Source of the DNA: Bacteroidota bacterium
GTDB taxonomy: Bacteria > Bacteroidota > Ignavibacteria > UBA10030
Direction: 5' to 3'
NCBI GenBank assembly: GCA_021813905.1
Contig: JAKAJH010000009.1
Coordinates: forward strand, 7,346 to 71,345
Length of the DNA stretch: 64,000 nt
Shown here: in pieces, positions 5,660-35,947 of the stretch
Position numbering within the stretch: position 1 is the stretch's first letter
Layout: each line of letters opens with the position of its first letter
Notes under the pieces: generated by a model
What the model saw: the letters and a program-made list of their open reading frames with translations, nothing else
What the model was told of the DNA's origin: nothing
Databases searched by the model: none
Position numbers and translations under genes: made by a program

Positions 5660-5839
5660 ATGGCAGCAATCGATACGTTCGACTGGTACGTGAGCAAATT
5701 CTATCCGCATCCCGATCCGCAGACGGAGCAGAGACTTCGCTCGGAACGGGCAAAACTCCTGGATCTCCGGAACGAGGACATGCGGAAGCGATTCGTCGAC
5801 GCGCTCGTGGCGCGCGCCCACGCGGACGCAAAGCACTGA
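5660..5839 (+). CDS. Small hypothetical protein (59 aa), below the size cutoff of the ORF track
   Basis: ATG at 5660 is preceded by AAAGGAG with 9-nt spacing. Translation is MAAIDTFDWYVSKFYPHPDPQTEQRLRSERAKLLDLRNEDMRKRFVDALVARAHADAKH, stop at 5837-5839. It lies in a 460-bp intergenic region upstream of the GH31 gene. Confidence 0.4.
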   Translation: MAAIDTFDWYVSKFYPHPDPQTEQRLRSERAKLLDLRNEDMRKRFVDALVARAHADAKH

Positions 5840-5893
5840 TTCGCCCCTCATGGTTCTTCCGTCCATCCTCCGTCAATCGATGAGTCTCAGATC

Positions 5894-8368
5894 ATGAAGC
5901 GTCTCTCGCTCTTCCTCGTCCTGATTGCCGTTGCTGCCGCGTCGTTGCGCGCACAGTGGCACTCGATCGGCAACGCCGATTCCGTCCGGATGGCCGACGG
6001 CCGAACCCTCGAGCTGCGTGCCGGAACCACCGGCGTTCGCATCACGATCCTGGCGGACGATCTGGTGAGGATCCAGGCGGATCAACAAGGGACTCCGCCT
6101 TCCGGCTCGTCGGTGGCAGTCGAGAAGACCGACTGGCCCGAGATCCTGCCATCCGCGATGCTCACCGGTGATTCGGCCGTCCTGTCCACGAGTCAGATTA
6201 CTGTTGTCGTGACAAAGTCTCCTGTCCGGATCACTGTGCGGAAGCAGGATGGCACGGTGCTCTGCCAGGATGACGAGCGGGGGATGGCCTGGGACGGCGC
6301 AAACATCCGCGTGTGGAAGAAGCGCCAGGCGGGCGAGCAATTCTTCGGACTGGGAGAGAAGACCGGCGCGCTGAACCGGACCGGCAAGGCGTTCGCCATG
6401 TGGAATTCCGACATCCCCGCGTACAAGGCTGACACGGATCCGCTGTATGAGTCAATCCCGTTTTTCTATTCGCTCCGCCATGGAGCCGTGTACGGGATCT
6501 ACTTCGACGATACGTACCGGACATCATTCGATCTCGGCGTCGAGTCACCGGACGCGTACTCGTTCGGTGCGACAGGCGGGGCCATTGACTACTACGTCTT
6601 CGCCGGACAGACTCCTCGCCAAATCCTCGGACGGTTCACGGAATTGGTCGGGCGCATGCCGATGCCGCCCCGATGGGCGCTCGGCTATCAGCAATGCCGC
6701 TGGAGCTACTCGCCGGAGAGCAAGGTCCGGGCGATCGCAAGAACCTTCCGGCAGAAGAAGATCCCGTGCGACGTGATTTATCTCGACATCGACTACATGG
6801 ACGGCTACCGCGTGTTCACGTGGAGTCCGAAGAATTTTCCCGAACCGAAGAAGCTCCTTGCAGATCTTGCGGCGGAGGGATTCAAGGTCGTGACCATCAT
6901 CGATCCCGGCATCAAGGCCGATTCGGCATACCATGCATTTCAGACGGGACTCGCCGACAACGCGTTTCTGAAGTATCCGGACGGACGGTTGTATCTGGGA
7001 AAGGTCTGGCCGGGCATTTGCGCGTTTCCCGACTTCACGGACGCGGCGGCCCGGGCATGGTGGGGAGCGAATTTCTCCGTTCTGATCGACGCCGGCGTCC
7101 GGGGATTCTGGAATGACATGAATGAACCTTCGGTCTTCGATGTCCCATCGAAGACGATCGACCTCGACGTGGTGCACAACGACGACGGTCGCCGGACATC
7201 GCATGCCGCGAATCACAATATCTACGGTCTGCAGATGACCCGCGCGACGTATGACGGCGTCCGCGCGCTCCGGCCGGAGGAACGGCCGTTCATTCTCACG
7301 CGCGCATCGTTTGCCGGCGGACAGCGCTACGCCGCCGCGTGGACAGGAGACAACGTATCGTCGTGGGAACATCTGCAGCTTGCCGTCCCGATGTGTCTCG
7401 GGCTGAGCATCTCGGGCCAGCCGTTCGTCGGGACGGACATCGGCGGATTCATCGGCGCGCCGGACGGCGAACTGTTCGCCCGATGGCTTCAGCTGGGCGT
7501 CTTCACGCCGCTCATGCGCGCCCATAGCGTCATCAACAGCCCGGACAAGGAGCCGTGGGCGTTCGGTCCGGTGTACGAGGCCGTGAACCGATCGACCATC
7601 GAACTCCGCTACCGGTTGCTGCCGTACATCTACAATGCGATGCATCGTGCCAGCATCACCGGCATTCCGCCCATGCGTCCGTTGATCTTCGACTTTCCGA
7701 ACGACGACGCCTATCTGATGGACGAGACCGACTTCTTGTTCGGGGACGACCTGCTGGTGGCGCCGGTACTCTGGCCGGGACAGCGAACGCAGGACGTGCG
7801 TTTGCCGGCCGGGACGTGGTACGACTACTGGACAGACCGCGAATTCCGAGGCGGCGCGAACGTCACGGTCGAAGCGCCCATTGACCGCGTCCCGTTCTTC
7901 GTGAAGGCCGGTGCCATCCTCCCGACGCAGCAGCCCATGCAGTACGTCGATCAGGCGCCCGTCAGCCCGCTCACGTTGACTGTCTATCCGGCGGATTCAT
8001 CTTCGACGACGTATTACGGCGATGACGGGATTTCATTCGGATACCGGAAGGGCCAGTACTCTGAGCGGACGATCACGCAGCAGCGTTCCGCCGCACGCGT
8101 CGTGCTCACGTTCACGGCGAGCGAGGGTTCCTATCCGGTCCCGCGCCGGTACGTGGATGTTCGGTTTCTGCATGTCGCCGAGGCTCCCGCGTCGGTTGCG
8201 ATCGAAGGAAAGGTGCTTGCGCGTCTGGGGAAGACGGACGGGGGAGAGGGATGGTGGTTCGACGGGAAGAAACATCTGCTCGGCGTCCGCATGACGGATC
8301 GCGCGGAGGCATTTACGGTCTCCGCGACGTTCGCATCGTCCGATGCCGGAGGAGTGCGGCGCCGTTGA
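5894..8368 (+). CDS. Glycoside hydrolase family 31 alpha-glucosidase/alpha-xylosidase, secreted
   Basis: Signal peptide MKRLSLFLVLIAVAAASLRAQ. GH31 signatures WNDMNEPSVFD (nucleophile region) and VGTDIGGFIG (acid/base region). 824 aa. Confidence 0.88.
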   Translation: MKRLSLFLVLIAVAAASLRAQWHSIGNADSVRMADGRTLELRAGTTGVRITILADDLVRIQADQQGTPPSGSSVAVEKTDWPEILPSAMLTGDSAVLSTSQITVVVTKSPVRITVRKQDGTVLCQDDERGMAWDGANIRVWKKRQAGEQFFGLGEKTGALNRTGKAFAMWNSDIPAYKADTDPLYESIPFFYSLRHGAVYGIYFDDTYRTSFDLGVESPDAYSFGATGGAIDYYVFAGQTPRQILGRFTELVGRMPMPPRWALGYQQCRWSYSPESKVRAIARTFRQKKIPCDVIYLDIDYMDGYRVFTWSPKNFPEPKKLLADLAAEGFKVVTIIDPGIKADSAYHAFQTGLADNAFLKYPDGRLYLGKVWPGICAFPDFTDAAARAWWGANFSVLIDAGVRGFWNDMNEPSVFDVPSKTIDLDVVHNDDGRRTSHAANHNIYGLQMTRATYDGVRALRPEERPFILTRASFAGGQRYAAAWTGDNVSSWEHLQLAVPMCLGLSISGQPFVGTDIGGFIGAPDGELFARWLQLGVFTPLMRAHSVINSPDKEPWAFGPVYEAVNRSTIELRYRLLPYIYNAMHRASITGIPPMRPLIFDFPNDDAYLMDETDFLFGDDLLVAPVLWPGQRTQDVRLPAGTWYDYWTDREFRGGANVTVEAPIDRVPFFVKAGAILPTQQPMQYVDQAPVSPLTLTVYPADSSSTTYYGDDGISFGYRKGQYSERTITQQRSAARVVLTFTASEGSYPVPRRYVDVRFLHVAEAPASVAIEGKVLARLGKTDGGEGWWFDGKKHLLGVRMTDRAEAFTVSATFASSDAGGVRRR

Positions 8369-19964: not shown

Positions 19965-20037
19965 GGGGCTGTAGCTCAGCTGGGAGAGCGCTTCGTTCGC
20001 AACGAAGAGGTCGTCGGTTCGAACCCGATCAGCTCCA
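19965..20037 (+). tRNA. tRNA-Ala, anticodon CGC
   Basis: GGGGCTGTAGCTCAGCTGGGAGAGCGC...GGTTCGAACCC cloverleaf. G3:U70 alanine identity pair in the acceptor stem (GGGGCTG/CAGCTCC). Anticodon loop TTCGCAA. Discriminator A. No CCA is encoded. Confidence 0.9.
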
Positions 20038-20717
20038 CGACGGTGCCTCTGCGCGCTTCGGCGTTGTGCCGGAAATCACGGAAGAGCGCCGGCGCATCGA
20101 CCGGTCCAGGTCGCCGGGGAAGACGAAGTTCCGGCGGAGGATCACCCGGACCGAGGTGGGGCATCCGCGGGTATGTGCCGGGATGCTGGCACTGTCCGAA
20201 GTGAAATGTTCCCCGGATCGCCCGTGGCACGCGATGCCGGGGGACCCTGTTCAATGATTCACAAGGACGCAGCGTTGTTCCAGTGTGAGGTCAAGTCCTG
20301 CGCAACAGAACTCTGTCTAACCCCGCCAGATCCGGAAGGAAGCAACGGTCGACACTTCGTTTTGTGTGACGCAGGGGCGCTTGACCTCTTTTTTTGTCCA
20401 ACGCCACACGACTGTCGCGTGACCTTTACGGCCTGACCCGTCGGCCAGCGCGGGTTGCGCAAATGCACGGGCCAAACTCATGCTGCCAGCAGCATTCACT
20501 CTTCTCACTTTCATTCTTATCATCAGCCTGATGCGTCAGGGGGAAACTCGCGCGTGTCGCGAATTGGCGCATGTGCCCGGACGACCCGGAACAACACGAC
20601 ACCAAGTGTATGCCCACCGAGGATGGGTCCTCTCCTCGTACGGGACTGTTCTCCGTCGGACCGAACGGCTCCATGCCCCGTCCCTTCGTCATCGGCTGAA
20701 GTGGAAACGGTCTCCGT
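20038..20717 (+). promoter_or_regulatory. Long (~680 nt) non-coding leader upstream of the RNase E/G gene; candidate autoregulatory 5' UTR
   Basis: No credible ORF on either strand. Several GC-rich inverted repeats are visible. RNase E genes in other bacteria carry long structured autoregulatory leaders. Confidence 0.3.
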
Positions 20718-24129: not shown

Positions 24130-24921
24130 ATGAAAATTGATCTGACGTTTACGTCGAGCTCGTTCGACGAGCTTCAGCTCCGCGACAAGAACATCGTGGT
24201 GATCGATGTGCTGCGCGCGAGTACGACGGTGACCGTGGCGCTGGCGAACGGCGCGCGCGAGATCATTCCGGTCGGCTCCATCGAATCAGCCGTGAAGATT
24301 TCCGGGTCGCTGTTCGGCGAAGTCACACTGCGCGGCGGGGAGCGGAACGGCCGCATCATCGAAGGATTCAATCTCGGCAATTCGCCGCTGGAGTACGGTG
24401 AGGCGACGGTCCGCGGAAAATCGATCATCTTCTGCACGACGAACGGATCCGTGGCGATGACCAAGAGCCGGTATGCCCGCTCCCTGGTGATCGGCTCCTT
24501 TGTGAACCTTGGCACCGTCGTGAAATTCATGGAGGAGAAGAACGAGGACTTCCTGCTTCTCTGCGCTGGACGATTGAACACGATCGGGCAGTTCAGCCTC
24601 GAAGATGCCGTGTGTGCGGGGATGATGGTCCAACGGCTCGAGGCGGGAGGGAATGCGAAGGTGGAACTCACGGATGCGTCGCGCGCGGCGCTGGCGCTGT
24701 ACAAAGCGCATGGCCGCTCGATCCTGAAGCTGCTGAAGAACTGTGAGCACGGCGAATACCTGGCGGAGATCGGGTTCGAAAGCGATCTGAAGCTCTGCGC
24801 GGACGTGGACACCGTTCCTGTGCTTCCGATGCTTTCGGGGACGGTGATCAAATTGCGACGCGACGAACAGCGTCCTGAAAATGCGGATCCGACCGCAGCA
24901 GGCCGGACATCCGGCGTCTGA
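24130..24921 (+). CDS. comB: 2-phosphosulfolactate phosphatase family protein (ComB-like)
   Basis: VVIDVLRASTTV and EGFNLGNSP motifs, characteristic of the ComB family. Confidence 0.8.
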   Translation: MKIDLTFTSSSFDELQLRDKNIVVIDVLRASTTVTVALANGAREIIPVGSIESAVKISGSLFGEVTLRGGERNGRIIEGFNLGNSPLEYGEATVRGKSIIFCTTNGSVAMTKSRYARSLVIGSFVNLGTVVKFMEEKNEDFLLLCAGRLNTIGQFSLEDAVCAGMMVQRLEAGGNAKVELTDASRAALALYKAHGRSILKLLKNCEHGEYLAEIGFESDLKLCADVDTVPVLPMLSGTVIKLRRDEQRPENADPTAAGRTSGV

Positions 24922-24936
24922 GGCATTCATTCTTCC

Positions 24937-27372
24937 ATGGCCGACGCCCAGAATAAGGAACAGAAGTCGCAACGTCCCAACCATCGCCGCCAGATTGCGG
25001 CGTTTGCCGGACTGCTCTGCTCGCTGATGCTGCTGCTGAGTCTCGTGTCGTACACCGCGGCGGATCAGGCCAGCGGCGAGATCGCCTTCACGGATCTGTG
25101 GAGGGTGTTCACGAACAATGAGGTGATCCTGGCGAAGGCGGAGCAGACGCAGAACTGGCTGGGGCTGGCCGGTGCGATCGTCTCGAACTGGCTGATCAAC
25201 GCCACCCTCGGCTATGCGGCGATCATCTTCCCTTTCCTTGGATTTCTCTGGTCGATCTATCTGCTCAATCGCAAGGATCTGCGGCGCAAGATCACGATCA
25301 CGAATTACGTGATCCTGCTCGCCGTGCTGTTCGCGTCGTTCACCGGTGTGCTGAAGCTCTTTGATGACGCTCTGCCGACGGAATGGAGCGGTGTGGTCGG
25401 CCATTTTGTGGCGCATATCCTCTCCCGCACGATCGGACTGACCGGCGCAGTGCTGGTGGTGGGCGCGGCATTCATCGTGGTGATCACGCTGCTCGTCGAT
25501 CTGGACTATCGGGTGACCTTCCAGCGCCTGCGCACTCTCGTCGACGCGGCATCGGCACGGCTCGACGCGTGGTGGAACGCCTGGAGCGCCCGCCGTGCGG
25601 AATCCCGTGCCACTCGATCGGCCAAAGCGCCCTCAGCGGCTCCCTCCGTAAAGATCAAGCGGCCCGACGGTGAGCCGCAGCCGGTCAAACCGATCCCGCC
25701 GGTGAATCCCGTTGTGAAATCGGTGCCGGCACCCCCTCCGTTACCGTCACCGACCCCGCTTCATCCGCCGGTGACTCCTCCATCCGCCCCGGAAGATCTG
25801 CAGGTGGACATCCAGGAAGGTGTGAAGGAAGAAGAAGTGGACTTCGACGAACGGAGGTCGCCGGTCGAAGAAGGAGTGGAAGAAGAGATCGACTTCGTTC
25901 CGCCGTCGGTGGAACTGCTCGACGCGCACCGGGCGAGCGAAGAAGTGAACGATGAAGAACTGAAGGCCAACGCGGAGCTGCTGCGCGCGAAGCTGGCGGA
26001 TTTCTCGGTGGAAATCGACAGCGTTTCCGTCACGCCCGGTCCGGTGGTGACGCTTTACGAGCTTGTGCCGGCGGCGGGAGTGAAGATCAGCCGGATCGAG
26101 AGTCTGCAGGACGATATCGCGCTGGCGCTGAAGGCGCGCGGTATCCGCATCATCGCACCGATGCCGGGAAAAGGAACCGTCGGCGTCGAGATCCCGAATC
26201 ACAATCCGTCGCTCGTGACCATCCGGAGCGTGATCAATTCGACCAAGTTCCGGGACGCGAAGGCGGCGCTGCCGCTGGCGATGGGGAAGACCATCTCGGG
26301 CGAAGTGTACGTGGACGATCTTTCCAAAATGCCGCATGTGCTGATCGCCGGCGCCACGGGATCCGGCAAGAGCGTCGGCATCAACACGATCATCACCAGT
26401 CTCATCTACCGGCTCCACCCGAGCGATGTGAAGTTCGTCATCATCGATCCGAAGAAGATCGAGCTGACGCTGTTCTCCAAGCTCCGGAATCATTATCTCG
26501 CGGTTTCGCCCGACTTCAAGGAAGAGATCGTCACGACGCCGGAGAACGCCGTGATGGTGCTGAAGAGCGTCGAGCTGGAAATGGAGCGCCGCTACGACCG
26601 TCTGGCCCAGGCCGCCGTGCGCAACATCGCCGACTACAACGAGCGGTTCAAGGCCGGGCGCCTGCATGACACCGAGACGATCAAGCACCGGAAGCTGCCG
26701 TATCTCGTCGTCATCGTGGATGAGCTGGCGGATCTGATGATCACCGCGGCGCGGGAGGTCGAGGAACCGATTGCGCGACTGGCGCAGCTGGCGCGGGCTG
26801 TCGGTATTCACCTGGTGCTGGCCACCCAGCGGCCGTCGGTCGACGTCATCACGGGCGTCATCAAGGCAAACTTCCCGGCGCGGATCGCCTACCAGGTCTC
26901 GTCAAAAATCGACTCGCGCACGATCCTGGACATGAACGGCGCGGACCAGCTGTTGGGCAACGGCGACATGCTGTACCTGCCCTCCGGCTCGCCGAAACCG
27001 ATCCGCATGCAGAACGCGTTCATCTCGACGGACGAGGTGGAGCGGGTGACGGGCCACATCGGCAAGCAGAAGGGCTATACGAATGCCTTCCGTCTTCCGT
27101 CGGTGCTCGAAAAGAAACGCGCGTCGGGTTCCGGGGTGGATTCGTCGCGGGATGAACTGTTCGAAGAAGCGGCTCGCATCATCGTGCGTCATCAGCAGGG
27201 CTCGGTGTCCCTGCTGCAGCGGCGGCTGAAAGTAGGATATTCCCGGGCAGCCCGGCTGGTGGACGAGTTGGAGGCCGCCGGCGTCGTGGGACCATTCGAC
27301 GGCAGCAGACCGCGGGATGTACTGTACGATTCCGAGGCTCAACTCGAAGCATTGTTCAAGGCGCTGGAATGA
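24937..27372 (+). CDS. ftsK: DNA translocase FtsK/SpoIIIE
   Basis: N-terminal TM segments, a Pro-rich linker, a motor domain with Walker A GATGSGKSVGINT, and a C-terminal gamma winged-helix (SVSLLQRRLKVGYSRAARLVDELE). Confidence 0.95.
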   Translation: MADAQNKEQKSQRPNHRRQIAAFAGLLCSLMLLLSLVSYTAADQASGEIAFTDLWRVFTNNEVILAKAEQTQNWLGLAGAIVSNWLINATLGYAAIIFPFLGFLWSIYLLNRKDLRRKITITNYVILLAVLFASFTGVLKLFDDALPTEWSGVVGHFVAHILSRTIGLTGAVLVVGAAFIVVITLLVDLDYRVTFQRLRTLVDAASARLDAWWNAWSARRAESRATRSAKAPSAAPSVKIKRPDGEPQPVKPIPPVNPVVKSVPAPPPLPSPTPLHPPVTPPSAPEDLQVDIQEGVKEEEVDFDERRSPVEEGVEEEIDFVPPSVELLDAHRASEEVNDEELKANAELLRAKLADFSVEIDSVSVTPGPVVTLYELVPAAGVKISRIESLQDDIALALKARGIRIIAPMPGKGTVGVEIPNHNPSLVTIRSVINSTKFRDAKAALPLAMGKTISGEVYVDDLSKMPHVLIAGATGSGKSVGINTIITSLIYRLHPSDVKFVIIDPKKIELTLFSKLRNHYLAVSPDFKEEIVTTPENAVMVLKSVELEMERRYDRLAQAAVRNIADYNERFKAGRLHDTETIKHRKLPYLVVIVDELADLMITAAREVEEPIARLAQLARAVGIHLVLATQRPSVDVITGVIKANFPARIAYQVSSKIDSRTILDMNGADQLLGNGDMLYLPSGSPKPIRMQNAFISTDEVERVTGHIGKQKGYTNAFRLPSVLEKKRASGSGVDSSRDELFEEAARIIVRHQQGSVSLLQRRLKVGYSRAARLVDELEAAGVVGPFDGSRPRDVLYDSEAQLEALFKALE

Positions 27373-28016
27373 AACGACTTTCCCTGATCCTGTCTGCTTG
27401 GTGTCTCCTGCTGCCGGGGGCTCTTTCTGCCCAGGATGAACCGCTCACGGCCAAAGAGCTGACGGCTCGTCTTCAACGCCGCTCGGATATGATCGACGAT
27501 GCGGTCGCGACGTTCGAGCAGCATGTGAAGTTCGGCTACTCCAGCATCGAGCAGACGTTCGAAGGGACACTGACCTTCCGCAAGCCGAATCGCTACCGCA
27601 TCGAATCGGACGCGCAGACGATCGTAACGGACGGCGTGACGGTATGGGCATATTCGGCCGCCAACAAGCAGGTGATCATCGACCGATACAAGGAAAACCA
27701 GAATTCCGTGTCCCCGGAGCAGTTCCTGCTCAATCTGCCGTCGGCGTACTACGTCTCGTTGCTTGGCGCGGACAAGGGGCCGAAGGGGCAGCAGTACGAG
27801 CTGAAGCTGGTGCCGAAGGACGACCGCTCCTTCATCCGTTCCGTCAAGATGTGGATCGATGCCGGTACCTGGACGATCCGCAAGGTGCTGATCACGGATG
27901 TGAACGACACGGAAACCACGTACACCGTCAAGGATCTGCGGCTGAACACGAATGTCCGGGATACGGAATTCACGTTCACGCCTCCACCGGGCACTGACGT
28001 CGTCGATCTCCGCTGA
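27369..28016 (+). CDS. lolA: Outer-membrane lipoprotein carrier LolA-like protein
   Basis: Signal peptide followed by the LolA-fold signature (FEQHVKFGYSS...GTLTFRKPNRYRIE...TDGVTVWAY). The ftsK-lolA gene order is conserved. ATGA overlap with ftsK. Confidence 0.85.
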   Translation: MKRLSLILSAWCLLLPGALSAQDEPLTAKELTARLQRRSDMIDDAVATFEQHVKFGYSSIEQTFEGTLTFRKPNRYRIESDAQTIVTDGVTVWAYSAANKQVIIDRYKENQNSVSPEQFLLNLPSAYYVSLLGADKGPKGQQYELKLVPKDDRSFIRSVKMWIDAGTWTIRKVLITDVNDTETTYTVKDLRLNTNVRDTEFTFTPPPGTDVVDLR

Positions 28017-28032
28017 CGGACCCCCTCCGCTG

Positions 28033-29070
28033 ATGTCCCGCTCGATGAAATCCTTCGTCCGGAACGCGTTCAGCTTCGTGCTGGCCTTCGCGTTTCTGTA
28101 CTTCGCGTTCCGGGACGTTCATTTCTCCGACCTGTGGTATTCGCTGCGCACGGCCAATTACGGGTGGATCCTTCTGCTGATCCCCGTCAACATCGCGAGT
28201 CACTGGATTCGCGCGGTCCGGTGGCGGTATCTGCTCGCGCCGGTCAAGAGCGGACTCTCCGACCGGAACCTGTTCTCCGGCGTCATGATCGGATACGCTG
28301 TAAACAACGTCCTGCCGCGGGTGGGAGAATTCGTGCGGCCGTACGTGCTCGGACGTCTGGAGAACATCTCCAAGAGCGCCGCGCTCGGCACGGTCGTCAT
28401 CGAACGCATCCTCGACTTCACCAGCTTCTACTTCATCGTGTGCGTGATGATTGCGATCTATCCGCATTCGCTCGACCCGTTCCTGCCGAATACCGCCGCA
28501 GTCGGTCCGCTCTTCCTTCTGGCATCCATGGCGGCACTGGTTGTGTTTGTGCTGATGTTCTTCAAGGCTGAGGCGATGATGCGCTTCCTGACACGCTGGA
28601 AGCACCTCGTTCCGGCGCGCTATCGGGCGACGACGGATCACATCCTCGAATCCTTTGCCACCGGTCTGAACGTCTCGCGCTTGCGGGAGCACTCCGTGGC
28701 GATCCTGTCGCTGAGTCTGGCGATGTGGGGCGTCTATGCGCTGGGCATGTATCTGCCGTTCTTTTCGCTCGACGCGCTGGCGGCGAAGGGATTGCATATG
28801 GGAGACGCGGTGCTTCTTCTGGTGATCTCGTCCATCGCGTGGGTGCTCCCGGCACCGGGAGCCATGGGCACGTACCATTCCTTTGTCACCGTTGTGCTGA
28901 TGCGTCTGTACGGCGTGGACATGACGACGGCGCTGAGTTACTCGATCATTACACATGAGGTCGGCTACATCGTGGTGATGGCGCTGGGGGCGGGATTCTA
29001 TCTGCGGGACAGGGCGAAGATCGGAAATTTCATGATGATGTCCGGGAAAGGAGAAGCATCCTCCACATGA
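28033..29070 (+). CDS. UPF0104 / lysyl-phosphatidylglycerol-synthase-TM-region-like (flippase-like) integral membrane protein
   Basis: About 8 TM helices. Conserved region RAVRWRYLLAPVKSGLSDRNLFSGVMIGYAVNNVLPRVGEFVRPYVL. Start at 28033 or 28045, after the lolA stop. Confidence 0.65.
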   Translation: MSRSMKSFVRNAFSFVLAFAFLYFAFRDVHFSDLWYSLRTANYGWILLLIPVNIASHWIRAVRWRYLLAPVKSGLSDRNLFSGVMIGYAVNNVLPRVGEFVRPYVLGRLENISKSAALGTVVIERILDFTSFYFIVCVMIAIYPHSLDPFLPNTAAVGPLFLLASMAALVVFVLMFFKAEAMMRFLTRWKHLVPARYRATTDHILESFATGLNVSRLREHSVAILSLSLAMWGVYALGMYLPFFSLDALAAKGLHMGDAVLLLVISSIAWVLPAPGAMGTYHSFVTVVLMRLYGVDMTTALSYSIITHEVGYIVVMALGAGFYLRDRAKIGNFMMMSGKGEASST

Positions 29071-31262
29071 AACAGGTTGCGCAGCAGAACAGACGCGGTA
29101 CCGTGAGCGTGATGCGCGTGCCGCCTCCGGCCCTCCGGCCGGGATTCGTGCTCGTGCGGACACGGTGGTCCGTGATCAGTGCGGGGACGGAACGTGCGTC
29201 GGTCTCCTCCCGGCAGAGTTCATTGCTGGATCGCGCGCGCAAGAACCCGGATCTCGTGGCGAAGGTCCTGGAACAGATGCGTCAGTACGGCTTGTCGGCG
29301 ACGATGCGGCGTGTGCGCGGCCGGCTGGAATCATGGAGCGCGATGGGATATTCTTCCGCGGGAACCGTCGTGGCGGTGGGTGACGGCGTGGAAGGAGTGC
29401 GACCGGGTGATGCGGTGGCGTGTGCCGGTGCCGGCTATGCGAGCCATGCGGAATATGTCATTGTTCCGAAGAACCTGTGCGTCCGGATCCCCAAAGGCGT
29501 TGATCTCGCGGATGCCGCCTATGCGCCCATTGGATCCATTGCCCTGCAGGGAGTGCGTCAGGCCGGACCCACACTCGGCGAGACGGTGGTGGTCATCGGT
29601 CTCGGCCTCATCGGGCAGATTACGGTCCAGTTGCTGAAGGCCGATGGATGCCGGGTGGTGGGCGTGGATCCCGACGCCGCCGCGGTTGCGTTGGCGGGAG
29701 AATCGGGCGCCGATCTGGCGCTGCACCGGACCCGCGATGATGTGAAGAAGGTCGTTCAGACGCTGACGGAGGGCCGCGGGGCGGATGCCGTGGTGATCAC
29801 CGCCGCGACGCCCAGCGATGATCCGGTTCGGCTCGCGGGCGAACTGTGCCGTGAGCGGGGACGCGTCGTACTGGTGGGAGATGTGGGATTGCACTTGCCG
29901 CGCGGTCCCTACTACATGAAAGAGCTGGATTTCCGTTTTTCGCGCTCGTACGGTCCCGGTCGCTACGATACGACGTATGAAGAACACGGACATGACTATC
30001 CGGCCGGCTTCGTGCGATGGACGGAAAATCGGAACATGCAGGAGTTTCTGCGGCTCATCAAGTCGGGTCGCGTTGATGTCGCGCGGCTGACCACGCACCG
30101 CTTCACCGTTGACCAGGCGCCGGCGGCGTACGCGCTGCTGGCCGGGAAGAAAGGAGGCGCTCGCGAGCGCTCAGTGGGCGTCCTGCTGGAGTATCCTCCG
30201 GAGCCGTCCACGGAACTGGGATCAGACGCCGTGGTGGCTGTGAGCGCTGCTCCCGCAGCGGATGTGGCGGGTGCGATGTCGGTCGGATTTGTCGGCGCGG
30301 GGAGCTTCGCCCAGAGTTCGCTTCTTCCACCGTTGCAAGGATACAGCGGAGCACGACTGACGACCGTGTGCACGGCCAACGGCATGAGTGCCGCGAATGT
30401 CGCACGCATGTTCGGCTTCGCAAAGGCGACTGCCGATCCGGAAGAGGTGTTTCGCGCCGCAGAGATCGGCACGGTCTTCATCGCCACGCGGCATAACCTG
30501 CACGCGCCGTTCGTGCTCCGCGCGATCGAGCAGGGCAAGCATGTGTTCGTGGAAAAACCGCTCGCCCTCAACGAGTCGGAGCTGCAACAGATCGTCGCGG
30601 CGTTGAGCAAGGCGCGCAAGAAGCAGCCGGTGAAGCTGATGGTGGGATTCAATCGCCGGTTCGCCCCCCTGGTTTCGGAAATGAAGCAGTTCCTCCGTAC
30701 CGCGGTCGGACCCTCCGTCATGAACTACCGCATCAGCGCCGGTTATCTGCCGGCATCGCACTGGACTCGTGATCCCGTCGAAGGAGGAGGACGCATCGTC
30801 GGTGAGGTGTGCCATTTCGTCGATCTGATGCAGTTCCTGTGCGGATCGGCGCCCGTCTCCGTCTTCGCGACGCCGCTGGGAACCGGTGTCGAATCCCCCG
30901 CGGACGATGACTCCGTGATCGCAACGGTGCGGTTTGCCAACGGATCGATCGGCACCATCACGTATGCCGCCAACGGCGACTCGGCGGTCCCGAAAGAGTA
31001 CCTCGAAGTGTTCACCACGGGGAGAAGCGCGGTCCTCAACAACTTCCGGACACTTACGCTGTATCAGCAGGGCAGGAGCCGGACGCTGAAGAAGGCCACT
31101 ATCGACAAAGGGCACCGCGAAGAAGTCAACCGGTTCCTTTCCGCTGTGCAGAGCGGCGGAGAAGCGCCGATCCCCTTCGCGGAGATCGTCGCCGCCACAC
31201 GGGCGACCTTCCGGATGCAGGAATCGCTCCGACTTTCCGTGCCGCGAGAGGTGACGCCGTGA
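29067..31262 (+). CDS. Two-domain oxidoreductase: zinc-type alcohol dehydrogenase (MDR)-like N-terminus fused to a Gfo/Idh/MocA NAD(P)-binding C-terminus
   Basis: N-terminus has the MDR fold with GLGLIGQ Rossmann motif. C-terminus has FVGAGSFAQ and EKPLAL (Gfo/Idh/MocA). ATGA overlap with the upstream gene and GTGA overlap with the downstream gene. Confidence 0.75.
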   Translation: MKQVAQQNRRGTVSVMRVPPPALRPGFVLVRTRWSVISAGTERASVSSRQSSLLDRARKNPDLVAKVLEQMRQYGLSATMRRVRGRLESWSAMGYSSAGTVVAVGDGVEGVRPGDAVACAGAGYASHAEYVIVPKNLCVRIPKGVDLADAAYAPIGSIALQGVRQAGPTLGETVVVIGLGLIGQITVQLLKADGCRVVGVDPDAAAVALAGESGADLALHRTRDDVKKVVQTLTEGRGADAVVITAATPSDDPVRLAGELCRERGRVVLVGDVGLHLPRGPYYMKELDFRFSRSYGPGRYDTTYEEHGHDYPAGFVRWTENRNMQEFLRLIKSGRVDVARLTTHRFTVDQAPAAYALLAGKKGGARERSVGVLLEYPPEPSTELGSDAVVAVSAAPAADVAGAMSVGFVGAGSFAQSSLLPPLQGYSGARLTTVCTANGMSAANVARMFGFAKATADPEEVFRAAEIGTVFIATRHNLHAPFVLRAIEQGKHVFVEKPLALNESELQQIVAALSKARKKQPVKLMVGFNRRFAPLVSEMKQFLRTAVGPSVMNYRISAGYLPASHWTRDPVEGGGRIVGEVCHFVDLMQFLCGSAPVSVFATPLGTGVESPADDDSVIATVRFANGSIGTITYAANGDSAVPKEYLEVFTTGRSAVLNNFRTLTLYQQGRSRTLKKATIDKGHREEVNRFLSAVQSGGEAPIPFAEIVAATRATFRMQESLRLSVPREVTP

Positions 31263-31954
31263 GCGGTCGTTCGCGTCTCTTGCCGCTGCTCATCATCGGC
31301 CTCGCGATCGCATGGCTGACTCCGGAACGGCTTTCCGCGCAGGATCAGACGACGGCGGCAGATTCGCGGGTCGTGCAAATCTCTGCGGGGATGGGAATCG
31401 ACGGCGTTCGCGCAAAATCCATGACAGACTGGATGACCGAGGAAGCGAAACCGGCCGATCAGCTGGGATTATTCGCGACGGCGATCGAGTTCTTCGTGAC
31501 GCCGGAGGTTCAGGTCGGCGAAAACTGGTCGATCGGCGTGGATTACAGTTATCTGTTCAGTTCACGGACCATCGATGGCTCCACCGGACGATGGACGTTC
31601 GCGTATCAGGCGCATCTTCCCATCGCACAAGTGCATTATCTCCTGCGGGGAACGGGGTACTGGCTGAAGGCCGGAGGCGGGATCGGCTATTGGTGGGCGA
31701 ATCTGCAGGAGCAGTACGTCACGCTCGGCTCGGAGCGTGACGGTACCGCGTCGGGTCCCGGTCTGAAGCTCGACGTCGTGGCGAACACGGCGTTTGACGA
31801 TCATTTGTTCGGGTCGATCGGCGTGGAATTCCGCGCCGGGGTGCTCGGCACCTTCAAAGACCGGAATGGCTCTGCGATCCAGTCGCTCGGCAGCGACGTC
31901 AATCTCAATTTCATCTCCGCCGGGGTCAAGTTCGGGTTGATGTACCAGTTCTGA
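31259..31954 (+). CDS. Small outer-membrane beta-barrel protein
   Basis: Signal peptide (LLPLLIIGLAIAWLTPERLSAQ), alternating amphipathic beta-strands, and a C-terminal aromatic residue (GLMYQF). Confidence 0.6.
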   Translation: MSGRSRLLPLLIIGLAIAWLTPERLSAQDQTTAADSRVVQISAGMGIDGVRAKSMTDWMTEEAKPADQLGLFATAIEFFVTPEVQVGENWSIGVDYSYLFSSRTIDGSTGRWTFAYQAHLPIAQVHYLLRGTGYWLKAGGGIGYWWANLQEQYVTLGSERDGTASGPGLKLDVVANTAFDDHLFGSIGVEFRAGVLGTFKDRNGSAIQSLGSDVNLNFISAGVKFGLMYQF

Positions 31955-31988
31955 CCGATGTGCGTGAAGTTCTCAAGGACAACGACGC

Positions 31989-32798
31989 GTGACGATACTC
32001 GATGCGGTGTGGCTTTCGATTCTGCAGGGATTCACGGAATTTCTTCCCGTCAGCAGTTCGGGACATCTCGTGCTGTTGCAGCAGCTTCTGGGAACGGCCG
32101 GTCCCGGCATGGTTTTCTTCGATGTCGCGCTGCATGTCGGGACGCTGATCAGTCTGCTGGTGGTCTTCTGGAAGGATGTGGTGGGGATGATCCGCAGCCT
32201 CGCGCGAGCGATCGTGCGCGGCCATGTGGTGACTTCGTATCGGACTGATGAGGCGGTGCGAACGGCGATCATGGTGATTGTGGCCTCCGTGCCGGCCGGC
32301 GTCGTCGGTTTCGTCTATCAGAAACAGATCGAGGAAGCGTTCACCGACCCGAAACTGGTCGCGGTCAATCTGGTGATCACCGGCCTGGTGCTCTTTTTGA
32401 CGCGTCTGGCGAAGCCGGTCGTGGGAAAAGAGGTCGGTTTCTGGACGGCGCTGCTGATCGGCGTGGGGCAGGCGTTCGCGATCCTGCCGGGAATTTCACG
32501 GTCGGGTACCACCATCAGCGCCGGCATGTATGCAAAGTTGACGCCGGACCGTGCGGCGCGGTTCTCGTTCCTGATGGCCATGCCGGTCATCGCGGGTGCG
32601 GGCCTGCTGGAGTTCAGGCACATGGCGGGAGCCTCCGATCCGATCCCGCTGATCCCCACGCTGATCGGGACGACCGTGTCGGCGGTGGTCGGCTATTTCG
32701 CCATCAAGCTGCTGCTCGGGATCGTACACCGCGGAAAGTTCAGTCTGTTCGCGTTCTACTGCCTGCTGCTCGGGACGACGGGCATCCTGTTTATCTGA
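31989..32798 (+). CDS. uppP: Undecaprenyl-diphosphate phosphatase
   Basis: FLPVSSSGHL and PGISRSG motifs. Multi-TM. Confidence 0.93.
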   Translation: MTILDAVWLSILQGFTEFLPVSSSGHLVLLQQLLGTAGPGMVFFDVALHVGTLISLLVVFWKDVVGMIRSLARAIVRGHVVTSYRTDEAVRTAIMVIVASVPAGVVGFVYQKQIEEAFTDPKLVAVNLVITGLVLFLTRLAKPVVGKEVGFWTALLIGVGQAFAILPGISRSGTTISAGMYAKLTPDRAARFSFLMAMPVIAGAGLLEFRHMAGASDPIPLIPTLIGTTVSAVVGYFAIKLLLGIVHRGKFSLFAFYCLLLGTTGILFI

Positions 32799-34447: not shown

Positions 34448-35947
34448 ATGCCCGTCGCCGAGCTCCTGCATCGACTGTTGCTGACACCGGCCGCGTGGGA
34501 ATGGGGCCGCTTTGCGTTGATTCTGACGGGACTGGGAACGGTCGTCGGGATCGGTGAGTTCATTCGGCGGAAGCTCGGCTGGAAGGCGGAGGTCACGCGC
34601 AAGTTCGTGCACGTCAGCGTCGGGCTTCTGATCTTCTTCGCACCGTCGCTCTTCGAGGTGGCGTTCCTTCCGATGCTCCTCGCCGGTACGTTCATTCTGG
34701 TCGACCTTGTCGCGGTGCGCAAGGGACTCCTCGTGGGCATGCACGGAACGGCGCGGTATTCCTACGGGACCGTGTACTATCCGTTCTCTTTCCTTGTTCT
34801 GATCATCTTCTTTTGGTACGACGCTCCCGAGATTGTCTCGCTTGGCATGGCGAGTCTTGCGCTGGGTGATGCTGCCGCCGCCATTGTCGGCGAATCGCTC
34901 CATGCGCCGCACGAGTACCATCTGACGCGAGACAAGAAGTCGCTGGAAGGAAGCGCGGCGATGTTCGTCGTCACCGCCGTGACGCTTGCCGGCGCGATGG
35001 CGCTATTGGGCTTGCCGCCGCGTCTCGGGTGGCCGTCGGTTCTGACGGCGTCGCTGGCGGCGTCCGTGGTGGCGACGGCCTGGGAGGCGATCTCTTCCAA
35101 AGGGCTCGATAATTTCACAGTGCCGCTTTCGGTTGCGTGGGCGCTGTCGTTCTTCCTTCTGCCCGGTGGTGATGCAGTGCAACTGGAATGGGGGATCGTG
35201 CTGGCGATTCTCATCAGCATCGCGTCGTGGCGGCTCAAATTTCTGACGCCGAGCGGCGCGGTCGCGACATTTCTTCTCGCATCGGCCATGTTCAGCGTCG
35301 GCGGTTGGAAGTGGACGGTGCCGATCCTGACGTTCTTTGTGCTGTCGAGCCTCCTTTCGGTGATGGGGAAAGAGCGCAAACGGTCGTTCGAGGCGATCTT
35401 CGAGAAAGGCGGTACGCGAGACCATCTGCAGGTGGCCGCCAACGGCGGGATTCCGGGAGTTCTGGTGCTGCTCCATTACCTGCTGCCTTCGATGGATCTG
35501 TATCCCCTCTATGTCGGTGCGTTGGCGGCAGCGACCGCCGACACGTGGGGAACAGAAATCGGGACATTCGTTCGCGGTCGGACAATCGTTCTGCCGGCCT
35601 TCCGTCCGGTGCCGCCGGGTACGAACGGCGGGATCTCGGGGGCCGGATTCCTGGGCGGTCTTGCGGGTGCGATGGTCATTGCGCTGAGTGCGAGCGGATG
35701 GCCGGGAGATCCGTTCCCGACAGGCGCGGTGGCGGCAGCGGGCGTCATCGGCGCTTTGGCGGACAGCATGCTTGGTTCGTCGATTCAGGCGCGGTTCGAA
35801 TGCGTCGTATGCGGCAAATCGACGGAGCGGGCCGTCCATTGTGAGCGGGAAAGCCGGCAAATCGGGGGTATCGGCTGGATACGGAATGATGCGGTGAACG
35901 CTTTTTGCACGTTGACCGGCGCGATCGCCGTGCTGATCATACGGTAG
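34448..35947 (+). CDS. Membrane fusion protein: CTP-dependent polyprenol (dolichol/phytol)-kinase-like domain plus DUF92/TMEM19-like domain
   Basis: N-terminal half resembles the CdsA/dolichol-kinase family (KFVHVSVGLLIFF...LGDAAAAIVG). C-terminal half carries the DUF92-type motif AAATADTWGTEIG and GGISGAGFLGG. A CxxC...HC patch lies near the end. Confidence 0.55.
   Translation: MPVAELLHRLLLTPAAWEWGRFALILTGLGTVVGIGEFIRRKLGWKAEVTRKFVHVSVGLLIFFAPSLFEVAFLPMLLAGTFILVDLVAVRKGLLVGMHGTARYSYGTVYYPFSFLVLIIFFWYDAPEIVSLGMASLALGDAAAAIVGESLHAPHEYHLTRDKKSLEGSAAMFVVTAVTLAGAMALLGLPPRLGWPSVLTASLAASVVATAWEAISSKGLDNFTVPLSVAWALSFFLLPGGDAVQLEWGIVLAILISIASWRLKFLTPSGAVATFLLASAMFSVGGWKWTVPILTFFVLSSLLSVMGKERKRSFEAIFEKGGTRDHLQVAANGGIPGVLVLLHYLLPSMDLYPLYVGALAAATADTWGTEIGTFVRGRTIVLPAFRPVPPGTNGGISGAGFLGGLAGAMVIALSASGWPGDPFPTGAVAAAGVIGALADSMLGSSIQARFECVVCGKSTERAVHCERESRQIGGIGWIRNDAVNAFCTLTGAIAVLIIR

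What the first reader, a model, noticed from the sequence alone, without database searches (positions are those of the whole stretch)
28033..31954. Translationally coupled trio: flippase-like UPF0104 membrane protein, MDR+Gfo/Idh/MocA two-domain oxidoreductase, outer-membrane beta-barrel
Genes overlap by ATGA (29067–29070) and GTGA (31259–31262). The first is a UPF0104 (lysyl-PG-synthase TM region-like) protein. Standalone versions of this family are proposed lipid or lipid-linked-sugar flippases. The second fuses a zinc-type alcohol dehydrogenase-like domain to a Gfo/Idh/MocA dehydrogenase; I recall this architecture mainly from O-antigen/capsule sugar-modification loci. The third is a small OM beta-barrel. 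uppP (undecaprenyl-PP recycling) lies immediately downstream. Together they look like an uncharacterized envelope glycolipid or lipid-headgroup modification and export route.
Basis: partly seen in the sequence, partly recalled or inferred. Interest (0 to 1): 0.55.

Follow-up and report, generated by a model that had tools for sequence, protein, structure and literature searches.

The report
Three envelope genes, not one pathway
The three overlapping genes are real and correctly identified, but relatives show that the two-domain oxidoreductase is a late, dispensable addition between an older membrane-protein and outer-membrane-barrel pair, so the proposed three-gene lipid export route is not supported.

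Summary
ORFs 28033-29070 (UPF0104/LPG_synthase_TM), 29067-31262 (731-aa MDR + Gfo/Idh/MocA fusion) and 31259-31954 (small OM beta-barrel) overlap by ATGA and GTGA, and uppP follows.

The fusion is not an artefact. Collinear homologues of 705-753 aa were confirmed in at least 600 stretches of species-representative genomes from many phyla.

The trio is not a conserved unit:
- In 76 of 80 such loci no UPF0104 or barrel lies within 10 kb. Neighbours there are glycosyltransferases, heparinase II/III-like proteins, asparagine synthase and carbamoyltransferase, which mark polysaccharide loci.
- In 80 low-GC relatives and two mid-GC ones, the order is FtsK-LolA-UPF0104-barrel-UppP with no oxidoreductase. 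UPF0104 and the barrel overlap there by 4 nt.
- In the window's own clade the fusion, the barrel and UppP are each lost from the slot independently.
- The block lies in a 13-gene housekeeping array in which unrelated genes (FtsK/LolA) also overlap by ATGA.

Best reading: the oxidoreductase is a lineage-specific insertion into an older lolA-UPF0104-omp-uppP envelope gene string. It is a cytoplasmic sugar or cyclitol dehydrogenase without the canonical catalytic zinc site. No glycosyl- or acyl-transferase is present to build a modified lipid. Interest is modest. The older LolA-UPF0104-barrel-UppP string is the more interesting lead.

The parts
27369..28016 (+). lolA (periplasmic lipoprotein carrier). 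It is the conserved upstream partner of the UPF0104 gene in every related locus.
   Evidence: Pfam LolA 4.1e-20 (72.6 bits against 23.6). NCBIfam LolA1_Flavo 96.4 bits against a cut-off of 100, and TIGR00547 95.2 against 112, so both are just below cut-off. It overlaps the ftsK stop by ATGA at 27369-27372. It is adjacent to UPF0104 wherever the contig reaches that far upstream.
28033..29070 (+). Standalone UPF0104 / LPG_synthase_TM (PplT-type, MprF-flippase-domain-like) polytopic inner-membrane protein, 345 aa.
   Evidence: PF03706 7.4e-45 covering 300 of 302 profile positions; TIGR00374 1e-22. At least 5 strongly hydrophobic 19-residue segments. Orthologues are 334-352 aa. The ORF could start at 27952, but database gene calls and homologue lengths favour 28033.
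29067..31262 (+). 731-aa cytoplasmic bi-domain oxidoreductase: N-terminal MDR (alcohol-dehydrogenase-fold) half, linker, C-terminal Gfo/Idh/MocA half.
   Evidence: Pfam ADH_N, ADH_zinc_N, GFO_IDH_MocA, GFO_IDH_MocA_C and C3. NCBI sources name it 'bi-domain-containing oxidoreductase'. At least 600 confirmed stretches in species-representative genomes. The AF2 model has pLDDT 77, and its PDB fold matches fall into two kinds, Gfo-type sugar/cyclitol dehydrogenases and alcohol/threonine dehydrogenases, with target TM 0.71-0.85 but query TM only 0.36-0.41.
29067..30191 (+). MDR half (aa 1-375). It has a Rossmann GLGLIG motif, but the canonical catalytic-zinc ligands are replaced.
   Evidence: G178, G180 and G183 are invariant. 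The 'GHE' of ketose reductase 1e3j aligns to G94-Y95-S96, which is invariant in the family. The family-specific invariant stretch at aa 273-318 is modelled with pLDDT below 50.
30276..31259 (+). Gfo/Idh/MocA half (aa 404-731), with a GAGSFA Rossmann motif, the EKP lysine and a conserved His583.
   Evidence: G407, G410, A411, G412, E496-K497-P498 and H583 are invariant in 12 sequences down to 52% identity. Best sequence matches are levoglucosan dehydrogenase 6a3f and inositol 2-dehydrogenase 4hkt. TIGR04380 iolG scores 116 bits, far below its cut-off of 355.
31259..31954 (+). 231-aa small outer-membrane beta-barrel (about 10 strands) of a narrow family found so far only in Ignavibacteria-type genomes.
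   Evidence: AF2 pLDDT 79. Foldseek PDB matches OmpA-TM, OpcA, Ail, OmpW, OmpX and NspA at E 1e-7 to 1e-6. Only 237 representatives at 50% clustering among 1.84 billion proteins. 16 of 63 relatives hit PF13505.
31989..32798 (+). uppP/bacA, undecaprenyl-diphosphate phosphatase.
   Evidence: PF02673 3.9e-75. NCBIfam UppP models score 185-202 bits, all below their curated cut-offs. It follows the barrel in all 77 low-GC loci that reach that far but is absent from the slot in L008, L091 and L092.
29067..29070 (+). ATGA start/stop overlap between UPF0104 and the oxidoreductase.
   Evidence: A GGAAAGGAGAAG purine-rich stretch lies about 10-20 nt upstream.
31259..31262 (+). GTGA start/stop overlap between the oxidoreductase and the barrel.
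   Evidence: The same GTGA overlap is recovered in L087.

Best explanation
The 'trio' is a composite. An older, tightly packed envelope gene string, lolA-UPF0104-small OMP-uppP, is conserved across Ignavibacteria-type bacteria and lies inside a long housekeeping array (RNase G-TAL-gcvT-comB-ftsK-...-PPIase-holA-DUF92). In one mid/high-GC subclade this string acquired a bi-domain oxidoreductase gene exactly between UPF0104 and the OMP. The window belongs to that subclade.

The three proteins most likely work separately.
1. The UPF0104 protein is a PplT/MprF-flippase-type translocator of cytoplasmic-membrane lipids. This is inferred from family membership.
2. The 731-aa enzyme is a cytoplasmic NAD(P)-dependent oxidoreductase acting on a sugar, nucleotide-sugar or cyclitol. 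Its Gfo/Idh/MocA half uses the EKP lysine and a histidine to oxidise a ring hydroxyl. Its zinc-less MDR half carries out, or recycles cofactor for, a second redox step. This is inferred from motifs, fold matches and the polysaccharide-locus context of the family elsewhere.
3. The 231-aa protein is a generic small outer-membrane barrel.

Co-transcription and start/stop coupling are likely, but they reflect the compact co-directional organisation of the whole array rather than a dedicated three-step pathway.
For: The fusion family is widespread and elsewhere unlinked to UPF0104 or the barrel.
- At least 600 confirmed stretches in species-representative genomes of many phyla.
- In 76 of 80 sampled loci there is no UPF0104, barrel or UppP within 10 kb, even with HMMs.
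- Neighbours there are GT1/GT4 glycosyltransferases, heparinase II/III-like proteins, AsnB, carbamoyltransferase, UDP-Glc dehydrogenase, WecG and UDP-GlcNAc 2-epimerase.
- In Kapaibacterium, L010 and low-GC Ignavibacteria contigs the fusion stands among unrelated genes.

The UPF0104-barrel pair exists without the fusion.
- All 80 loci recovered with distant barrel homologues show gcvT-comB-FtsK-LolA-UPF0104-barrel-UppP-PPIase with no oxidoreductase.
- The junction overlaps there are -14, -4 and -4 nt.
- L173 and L174 are as close to the window as fusion-bearing L089 and also lack the fusion, with an ATGA overlap between UPF0104 and the barrel.

Gain and loss are independent. A concatenated FtsK+LolA+UPF0104 tree puts the fusion at the base of the mid/high-GC clade, with L173/L174 nested inside it, which implies loss. 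The barrel is missing in L007. UppP is missing in L008, L091 and L092.

The fusion tree is congruent with vertical descent inside the slot and places the clade among other FCB-group sequences.

The array is large and functionally mixed, and it is conserved as a whole. ATGA overlaps also join unrelated genes such as FtsK and LolA.

No glycosyl-, acyl- or aminoacyl-transferase lies in the block.
Against: - Within the subclade the fusion has stayed in the slot, with tight or overlapping junctions, down to about 53% identity. This is compatible with recruitment into a shared function.
- All four core products (LolA, UPF0104, OMP, UppP) deal with envelope lipids or lipid-anchored molecules, so some functional relation among them is plausible and is not excluded.
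- The trees are neighbour-joining trees without support values.
- Gene absence 'from the slot' does not prove absence from the genome.
- All comparisons come from MAG or metagenome contigs of one class, so synteny conservation and functional coupling cannot be cleanly separated.
- No biochemical data exist for the fusion family. A literature search for its name found one paper, which uses the phrase once and which I did not open.
Confidence: 0.6

Rival explanations
1. The three genes encode one pathway: the oxidoreductase modifies the sugar or polyol headgroup of a lipid or lipid-linked sugar at the cytoplasmic face, UPF0104 flips it, and the barrel receives or exports it at the outer membrane, with UppP recycling the carrier.
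For: - Overlapping start/stop codons on both sides of the oxidoreductase.
- The arrangement is retained in most sampled members of the subclade, down to 53% identity.
- UPF0104 proteins are paired with lipid-headgroup enzymes in gpgSDF and MprF (PMC12713373; bioRxiv 10.1101/2022.03.11.483950).
- The fusion family is tied to sugar chemistry elsewhere.
Against: - The fusion is absent from the slot in 82 related loci in which UPF0104 and the barrel stay coupled.
- It is lost within the clade.
- It is never next to UPF0104 in 76 other loci.
- The barrel is lost in L007 and UppP in three relatives while the others stay.
- No transferase that would create the lipid-linked substrate is in the block.
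- Overlaps are equally present between unrelated neighbours.
Confidence: 0.12
2. The functional unit is the older four-gene string lolA-UPF0104-OMP-uppP. It would be a trans-envelope trafficking module for lipids or lipid-anchored molecules: inner-membrane translocator, periplasmic LolA carrier and outer-membrane barrel acceptor. The oxidoreductase is an unrelated passenger or a late accessory.
For: - In low-GC relatives, LolA/UPF0104 overlap by 14 nt in 43 of 53 junctions, UPF0104/barrel by 4 nt in 54 of 76, and barrel/UppP by 4 nt in 34 of 77. The next junction, UppP/PPIase, has a median gap of 42 nt.
- The pair persists down to about 27% barrel identity.
- The barrel family is narrow and, in every locus where its context could be read, lies in this slot.
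- LolA-like proteins are implicated in non-protein lipid (flexirubin) handling in Bacteroidota (PMC11885536; NCBIfam NF053544).
Against: - All examples come from one class, in which a 13-gene mixed-function array is conserved as a whole, so adjacency may be inherited rather than selected.
- ftsK-lolA adjacency also occurs in E. coli without a known functional link. This rests on my own knowledge.
- The barrel (L007) and UppP (L008, L091, L092) can be lost individually.
- The barrel shows no conserved catalytic-type residues across the family and looks like a generic OMP.
- No interaction evidence exists.
Confidence: 0.25
3. The 731-aa fusion is an assembly or frameshift artefact that joins two separate dehydrogenase genes.
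For: None found. The only weak point is a linker at aa 380-401 that is modelled with low confidence.
Against: - The identical protein is found on 11 independently assembled contigs.
- Thousands of collinear homologues of 705-753 aa exist, with at least 600 confirmed stretches in species-representative genomes.
- Residues are invariant across both halves.
Confidence: 0.01

Closest known systems
PplT / YbhN / GpgF, the standalone UPF0104 (PF03706) proteins homologous to the MprF flippase domain
   Same: Single-domain polytopic membrane protein of about 345 aa with a full-length PF03706 match. Like E. coli ybhN (with clsB) and P. aeruginosa gpgF (with gpgS and gpgD), it is encoded in an operon-like string with envelope genes.
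   Different: In those examples the partner is a lipid synthase or headgroup transferase (cardiolipin synthase, GT4, deacetylase, aminoacyl-PG synthase). Here no such enzyme is present. The constant partners are LolA upstream and a small OMP downstream. No PDB sequence match was found, even at E = 1.
'Bi-domain-containing oxidoreductase' (NCBI protein name): MDR + Gfo/Idh/MocA fusions in polysaccharide biosynthesis loci
   Same: Same collinear architecture, length and invariant motifs. Identity is 43-51% to members from Acidobacteriota, Chloroflexota, Planctomycetota, Bacteroidota and others.
   Different: Genomic context. Elsewhere the gene is flanked by glycosyltransferases, heparinase II/III-like proteins, AsnB and carbamoyltransferase. 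Here it is wedged into a housekeeping envelope string. I found no study of any member of the family.
Gfo/Idh/MocA sugar and cyclitol dehydrogenases (levoglucosan dehydrogenase, 1,5-anhydrofructose reductase, scyllo/myo-inositol dehydrogenases, GFOR, DgpA, WbpB-type UDP-sugar 3-dehydrogenases)
   Same: The C-terminal half shares the fold (target TM 0.74-0.85, E about 1e-22), the Rossmann motif, the EKP lysine and a conserved histidine.
   Different: Scores are far below every NCBIfam equivalog cut-off (for example iolG 116 against 355). The domain is fused to an MDR domain. The Asp of the usual D-x-x-x-H motif appears replaced; this rests on my manual motif comparison with the usual Gfo/Idh/MocA consensus recalled from memory, not on a computed alignment. 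The substrate is unknown.
Zinc-dependent medium-chain alcohol, polyol and threonine dehydrogenases
   Same: The N-terminal half has the ADH_N/ADH_zinc_N fold and the GxGxxG motif.
   Different: The catalytic-zinc GHE motif is GYS. The Cys of the first ligand position is Ser/Ala ('ISAGTE'), and the four-Cys structural-zinc lobe is missing; both points are read directly from the sequence. An insertion of about 50 residues (aa 43-93) and an invariant family-specific segment (aa 273-318) are present. It behaves like the zinc-less MDR branches (quinone oxidoreductase or BchC-like).
Small OMP beta-barrels (OmpA-TM, OmpX, Ail, OmpW, NspA, OpcA; Pfam OMP_b-brl clan)
   Same: Signal peptide, C-terminal aromatic residue, and a barrel of 8-10 strands with fold matches at probability 1.0.
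   Different: No Pfam hit for the window protein itself. It belongs to a narrow family of 237 representatives with a GYxxKxGGGxG signature. There is no OmpA-like periplasmic domain.

Membership tests
UPF0104 / LPG_synthase_TM (PF03706; PplT) | Full-length match to the family profile above the curated threshold | tested here: met
   154.1 bits against 33.4, covering profile positions 3-302 of 302. TIGR00374 scores 81 bits against 43.2.
UPF0104 / LPG_synthase_TM (PF03706; PplT) | Polytopic membrane protein (8 TM segments in the MprF flippase domain) | tested here: inconclusive
   A Kyte-Doolittle scan finds 5 segments at a strict threshold. More are visible by eye, but no dedicated topology predictor was available.
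UPF0104 / LPG_synthase_TM (PF03706; PplT) | Lipid translocation activity | not testable with these tools
   Activity has been shown only for MprF. For standalone members it is predicted (bioRxiv 10.1101/2022.03.11.483950; PMC12713373).
Bi-domain-containing oxidoreductase (MDR + Gfo/Idh/MocA) | Both domains in one polypeptide, collinear with family members over the full length | tested here: met
   99-100% query coverage for all but three partial sequences among the 120 listed hits, which are 705-753 aa long. Confirmed in 80 of 80 retained genome loci.
Bi-domain-containing oxidoreductase (MDR + Gfo/Idh/MocA) | Family signature motifs KEL[DE]F[RK]xSRS and GPGRYDxxYE | tested here: met
   K285-S294 and G296-E305 are invariant in alignment A1. 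They served as the search patterns that recovered the family.
Bi-domain-containing oxidoreductase (MDR + Gfo/Idh/MocA) | Usual genomic setting in polysaccharide biosynthesis clusters | tested here: not met
   The window gene is flanked by UPF0104 and an OMP inside a housekeeping array. The polysaccharide setting holds for out-of-clade members.
Zinc-dependent alcohol dehydrogenase (MDR, zinc-type) | Catalytic zinc ligands (Cys, the His of GHE, Glu or Cys) | tested here: not met
   The GHE of 1e3j aligns to GYS. Y95 and S96 are invariant in the family. The first-ligand Cys position reads Ser/Ala in 'ISAGTE' (sequence).
Gfo/Idh/MocA oxidoreductases | N-terminal Rossmann GxGxxG, the EKP catalytic lysine, and a conserved His in the C-terminal domain | tested here: met
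   G407, G410, G412, E496-K497-P498 and H583 are invariant. PF01408 3e-21 and PF22725 8.9e-11.
myo-Inositol 2-dehydrogenase IolG (TIGR04380), or any NCBIfam equivalog | Score at or above the equivalog cut-off | tested here: not met
   116.2 bits against 355. All other equivalogs are also far below their cut-offs.
Small outer-membrane beta-barrel proteins (OMP_b-brl clan) | Signal peptide, closed antiparallel barrel and a C-terminal aromatic residue | tested here: met
   An N-terminal hydrophobic segment at residues 7-25, followed by LSAQ. AF2 barrel and Foldseek matches. The C-terminus is ...MYQF.
Small outer-membrane beta-barrel proteins (OMP_b-brl clan) | Profile match to a Pfam OMP family | tested here: inconclusive
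   None for the window protein, even at E of 10 or less. 16 of 63 relatives match PF13505 and 9 of 63 match PF13568.
Lipid-headgroup modification plus flippase operons (MprF, gpgSDF, hexSDF type) | A synthase or transferase that attaches the headgroup to the lipid | tested here: not met
   No glycosyl-, acyl- or aminoacyl-transferase lies between gcvT and the carboxyltransferase gene.
Lipid-headgroup modification plus flippase operons (MprF, gpgSDF, hexSDF type) | Conserved co-occurrence of the modifying enzyme with the UPF0104 gene | tested here: not met
   The fusion is absent next to UPF0104 in 82 related loci. UPF0104 is absent next to the fusion in 76 loci.
Lol lipoprotein pathway (LolA) | A LolA-family periplasmic carrier | tested here: met
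   PF03548 72.6 bits against 23.6. It scores just under the NCBIfam equivalog cut-offs (96.4 against 100; 95.2 against 112).
Lol lipoprotein pathway (LolA) | Functional link of LolA to the downstream UPF0104 and barrel genes | not testable with these tools
   Only conserved adjacency and overlaps are available.

The most novel reading that the evidence does not exclude
In Ignavibacteria-type bacteria, lolA-UPF0104-small OMP(-uppP) may be a dedicated trans-envelope route for a lipid or lipid-anchored cargo. The parts would be an inner-membrane PplT-type translocator, the LolA periplasmic carrier and a lineage-specific outer-membrane barrel acting as acceptor, a possible functional stand-in for LolB. 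In the window's subclade a zinc-less MDR-Gfo/Idh/MocA oxidoreductase would have been recruited into the operon to remodel the cargo's sugar or polyol headgroup.
Probability: 0.1. Interest if true: 0.65.

Novelty: new member of a known kind. Interest (0 to 1): 0.3.

Why it matters
This is mainly a caution. Two consecutive start/stop overlaps and a plausible functional story did not survive comparative genomics. The central enzyme is a movable gene that entered, and in some lineages left, an older gene string.

Two useful leads remain.
1. The 'bi-domain-containing oxidoreductase' is a very large family with no studied member that I could find. It is strongly tied to polysaccharide loci, has a zinc-less MDR half and carries an invariant signature segment. 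Characterising one member would annotate thousands of genes.
2. The lolA-UPF0104-OMP-uppP string is a concrete place to test whether standalone UPF0104 (PplT) proteins cooperate with periplasmic and outer-membrane partners. It is testable in cultured Ignavibacterium or Melioribacter, provided they carry the string.

Tried and rejected
- Artefact hypothesis for the fusion: rejected.
- HMM searches for UPF0104 and the barrel within 10 kb of 76 out-of-clade fusion genes: none found.
I replaced it with a 12-sequence subset.
- PDB sequence search with the UPF0104 protein: no hit, even at E = 1.
- Catalytic-residue idea for the barrel (a PagL/PagP-like outer-membrane lipid enzyme): dropped. No polar residue is invariant across the family, His126 of the window's subgroup aligns with Tyr in the low-GC subgroup, and PagP/PagL are not among the top 50 fold hits.
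- Recent horizontal acquisition of the fusion from Acidobacteria or Chloroflexi: not supported by the NJ tree, in which the clade sits among FCB-group sequences.
- Promoter and terminator scan of 22.5-38.5 kb: nothing informative at the junctions, and sigma-70 consensus scanning is probably unsuitable for this phylum.
- Literature: a search for the family name found one paper that uses the phrase once, which I did not open. Searches for the heparinase/AsnB/Gfo cluster context found none.
- Pfam search of the N-terminal extension of the DUF92 protein: no credible hit.
- Cluster-member look-up for barrel taxonomy: it gave only 'Ignavibacteria bacterium' names.

Full report
**1. Observation**

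- 28033-29070: 345 aa. The ORF could start at 27952, but database gene calls and homologue lengths of 334-352 aa favour 28033.
- 29067-31262: 731 aa.
- 31259-31954: 231 aa.

The ATGA at 29067-29070 and the GTGA at 31259-31262 are present.

Family assignments:
- Gene 1 matches PF03706 LPG_synthase_TM over the whole profile (7.4e-45) and TIGR00374.
- Gene 2 carries ADH_N, ADH_zinc_N, GFO_IDH_MocA and the GFO C-terminal domains.
- Gene 3 has no family hit of its own. It has a signal-like N-terminus and ends in ...MYQF. AlphaFold folds it into a barrel of about ten strands (pLDDT 79). Its best PDB matches are OmpA-TM, OpcA, Ail, OmpW, OmpX and NspA. 16 of 63 distant relatives hit PF13505 OMP_b-brl.
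- uppP follows at 31989-32798.

The overlaps, however, are not distinctive. The trio sits in a run of 22 co-directional genes (20718-50963). In that run FtsK/LolA also overlap by ATGA (27369-27372), and three further junctions in my ORF-based gene list (first-start coordinates) show 4-nt overlaps.

**2. The fusion is real and widespread**

- The identical 731-aa protein occurs on 11 independently assembled contigs.
- Thousands of collinear homologues of 705-753 aa exist, which NCBI names 'bi-domain-containing oxidoreductase'.
- A scan of one genome per species confirmed at least 600 stretches in Bacteroidota, Acidobacteriota, Chloroflexota, Planctomycetota, Nitrospirota, Proteobacteria and others.
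- Both Rossmann motifs (GLGLIG and GAGSFA), the Gfo EKP lysine and His583 are invariant.
- The MDR half lacks the canonical zinc site. The GHE of ketose reductase 1e3j aligns to invariant GYS. The first-ligand Cys position is Ser/Ala in 'ISAGTE'. No four-Cys structural-zinc lobe is present (sequence).
- The AF2 model (pLDDT 77) matches two kinds of solved structure. One kind is Gfo-type sugar and cyclitol dehydrogenases: 1,5-anhydrofructose reductase, levoglucosan dehydrogenase, scyllo-inositol dehydrogenase, GFOR and DgpA. The other is alcohol and threonine dehydrogenases. Query TM is only 0.36-0.41, so each hit covers about half of the model, and none of the 50 listed hits spans both halves.
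- The family-specific invariant segment at aa 273-318 is modelled poorly.
- I found no study of the family. A search for its name returned one paper that uses the phrase once, which I did not open. Context searches found none.

**3. Is the trio a conserved unit? It is not.**

(a) Out-of-clade fusion loci. In 76 of the 80 genome loci fetched with the fusion (43-51% identity), neither phmmer nor purpose-built HMMs find a UPF0104, barrel or UppP gene within 10 kb. Immediate and second neighbours are:
- GT1/GT4 glycosyltransferases, WecG, DUF354 and methyltransferases;
- heparinase II/III-like proteins and asparagine synthase;
- carbamoyltransferase, UDP-glucose dehydrogenase and UDP-GlcNAc 2-epimerase.

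In Kapaibacterium, in L010 and in low-GC Ignavibacteria contigs the fusion sits among unrelated genes.

(b) Close relatives. In relatives with 53-74% fusion identity, the whole 13-gene array is conserved: RNase G-TAL-gcvT-comB-ftsK-lolA-UPF0104-fusion-barrel-(uppP)-PPIase-holA-DUF92. Trio conservation there cannot be separated from general synteny.

(c) Distant barrel homologues. The barrel family is small, with 237 representatives among 1.84 billion. I used a subgroup at about 27% identity to the window barrel to fetch 80 metagenome loci with GC of 30-38%. Every one shows ...ftsK-lolA-UPF0104-barrel-uppP-PPIase..., as far as the contig reaches, with no oxidoreductase. The junctions are very tight:

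| Junction | Result |
|---|---|
| LolA/UPF0104 | -14 nt in 43 of 53 |
| UPF0104/barrel | -4 nt in 54 of 76 |
| barrel/UppP | -4 nt in 34 of 77 |
| UppP/PPIase | median +42 nt |

(d) Relatives at the same distance as fusion-bearing ones. Two mid-GC relatives, L173 and L174, are as close to the window as fusion-bearing L089 (FtsK 72% and 69% identity against 70%). They also lack the fusion and have an ATGA overlap between UPF0104 and the barrel.

(e) Gain and loss. A concatenated FtsK+LolA+UPF0104 NJ tree places the fusion at the base of the mid/high-GC clade. L173 and L174 are nested inside it, which implies secondary loss. The barrel is missing in L007. UppP is missing from the slot in L008, L091 and L092. 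The fusion tree is congruent with that topology. It places the clade, plus L010, among other FCB-group sequences, which argues for vertical descent after one relocation rather than recent foreign acquisition. These are NJ trees without support values.

**4. Interpretation**

It is met for the oxidoreductase. No transferase that could attach a sugar or other headgroup to a lipid is present anywhere in the block, unlike MprF or gpgSDF, where a UPF0104 flippase accompanies the synthase (PMC12713373; bioRxiv 10.1101/2022.03.11.483950).

I therefore favour a composite (confidence 0.6). An older lolA-UPF0104-OMP-uppP envelope string acquired a bi-domain sugar or cyclitol oxidoreductase in one subclade, and the three proteins act separately.

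Which steps are shown and which are inferred:
- Shown: gene identities, folds, motif states, distribution, and insertion and loss patterns.
- Inferred: lipid translocation by the UPF0104 protein (by homology), the chemistry of the enzyme (by motif, fold and family context), and co-transcription.

**5. Rivals**

Retention of the fusion in the slot with tight junctions down to 53% identity is compatible with recruitment.
- The four-gene lolA-UPF0104-OMP-uppP string as a real trans-envelope module gets about 0.25. The overlaps are unusually conserved and all four products handle envelope lipids. Against it, every example comes from one class with strong global synteny, and members are individually lost.
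- An assembly or frameshift artefact is excluded.

**6. Comparison and novelty**

Each gene is a member of a known family:
- PF03706/PplT;
- the NCBI-named bi-domain oxidoreductase family;
- the generic OMP beta-barrel clan.

The enzyme fails the membership test for zinc-type ADHs and for every NCBIfam equivalog, including IolG (116 bits against a cut-off of 355). The arrangement is lineage-specific and is not a new system. I rate it 'new member of a known kind', with interest 0.3.

The most novel reading not excluded is a LolA-linked lipid-trafficking module with a recruited headgroup oxidoreductase. I give it a probability of about 0.1 and an interest of 0.65 if true.

Noticed in passing
L093-L172 (for example L094 6313-9495); window 27369-32798: A four-gene string, lolA-UPF0104-small OMP-uppP, is conserved with overlapping start/stop codons (-14, -4 and -4 nt) in 80 low-GC Ignavibacteria-type metagenome contigs. 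It is older and more constant than the trio that was flagged.
   Followed up: partly
window 29883-30020 (aa 273-318 of the fusion): The most conserved, family-defining segment of the bi-domain oxidoreductase (KELDFRxSRS...GPGRYDxxYE...RW) is invariant across 12 sequences, yet AlphaFold models it with pLDDT below 50. It may be a substrate-binding or oligomerisation element with no structural precedent.
   Followed up: partly
window 34448-35947: The DUF92 membrane protein is 499 aa, with a hydrophobic N-terminal extension of about 250 aa that has no Pfam match. Relatives carry either this long form (L087, L088, L090, L173, L174: 497-511 aa) or a short form of 262-297 aa (L089, L091, L092). A KKSLEGS motif reminded me of polyprenol or phytol kinases. 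That is from memory only and is not supported by any search.
   Followed up: partly
window 20718-50963: A run of 22 consecutive plus-strand genes with very short spacers and several 4-nt overlaps. The part from RNase G to DUF92 is syntenic in every relative whose contig reached that far, down to about 53% protein identity. This is an unusually stable mixed-function 'superoperon'.
   Followed up: partly
L087 9187-9891: The database gene call for the barrel in this relative is only 173 aa. The ORF actually has a GTG/ATG start at 9187/9190 that overlaps the oxidoreductase stop and restores a full-length protein with a signal peptide.
   Followed up: yes
L042 4301-7779: In a low-GC Ignavibacteriales contig, the bi-domain oxidoreductase start abuts the stop of a UDP-glucose/GDP-mannose dehydrogenase family gene (4301-5650 and 5650-7779). 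This is a direct link to nucleotide-sugar metabolism.
   Followed up: no
window 24130-24921: A 2-phosphosulfolactate phosphatase (ComB family, PF04029, 1.1e-68) is conserved between gcvT and ftsK in all relatives. Its role in a non-methanogen is unclear.
   Followed up: no
window 19965-20038 and 20289-20389: tRNA-Ala(CGC) and the bacterial small SRP RNA lie just upstream of the long gene array.
   Followed up: no
L173 8235-9734; L174 8245-9753: A sodium:neurotransmitter symporter (SNF) gene lies between the PPIase and holA genes in these two relatives only. This is another example of single-gene turnover within the conserved array.
   Followed up: no
L010 1518-6229: In this 58%-GC Bacteroidota MAG the oxidoreductase is still followed by uppP-PPIase-holA. 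Upstream, an anti-sigma (zf-HC2) gene and an opposite-strand ORF replace ftsK-lolA-UPF0104, and there is no barrel. The array therefore broke exactly at the UPF0104/oxidoreductase junction.
   Followed up: partly
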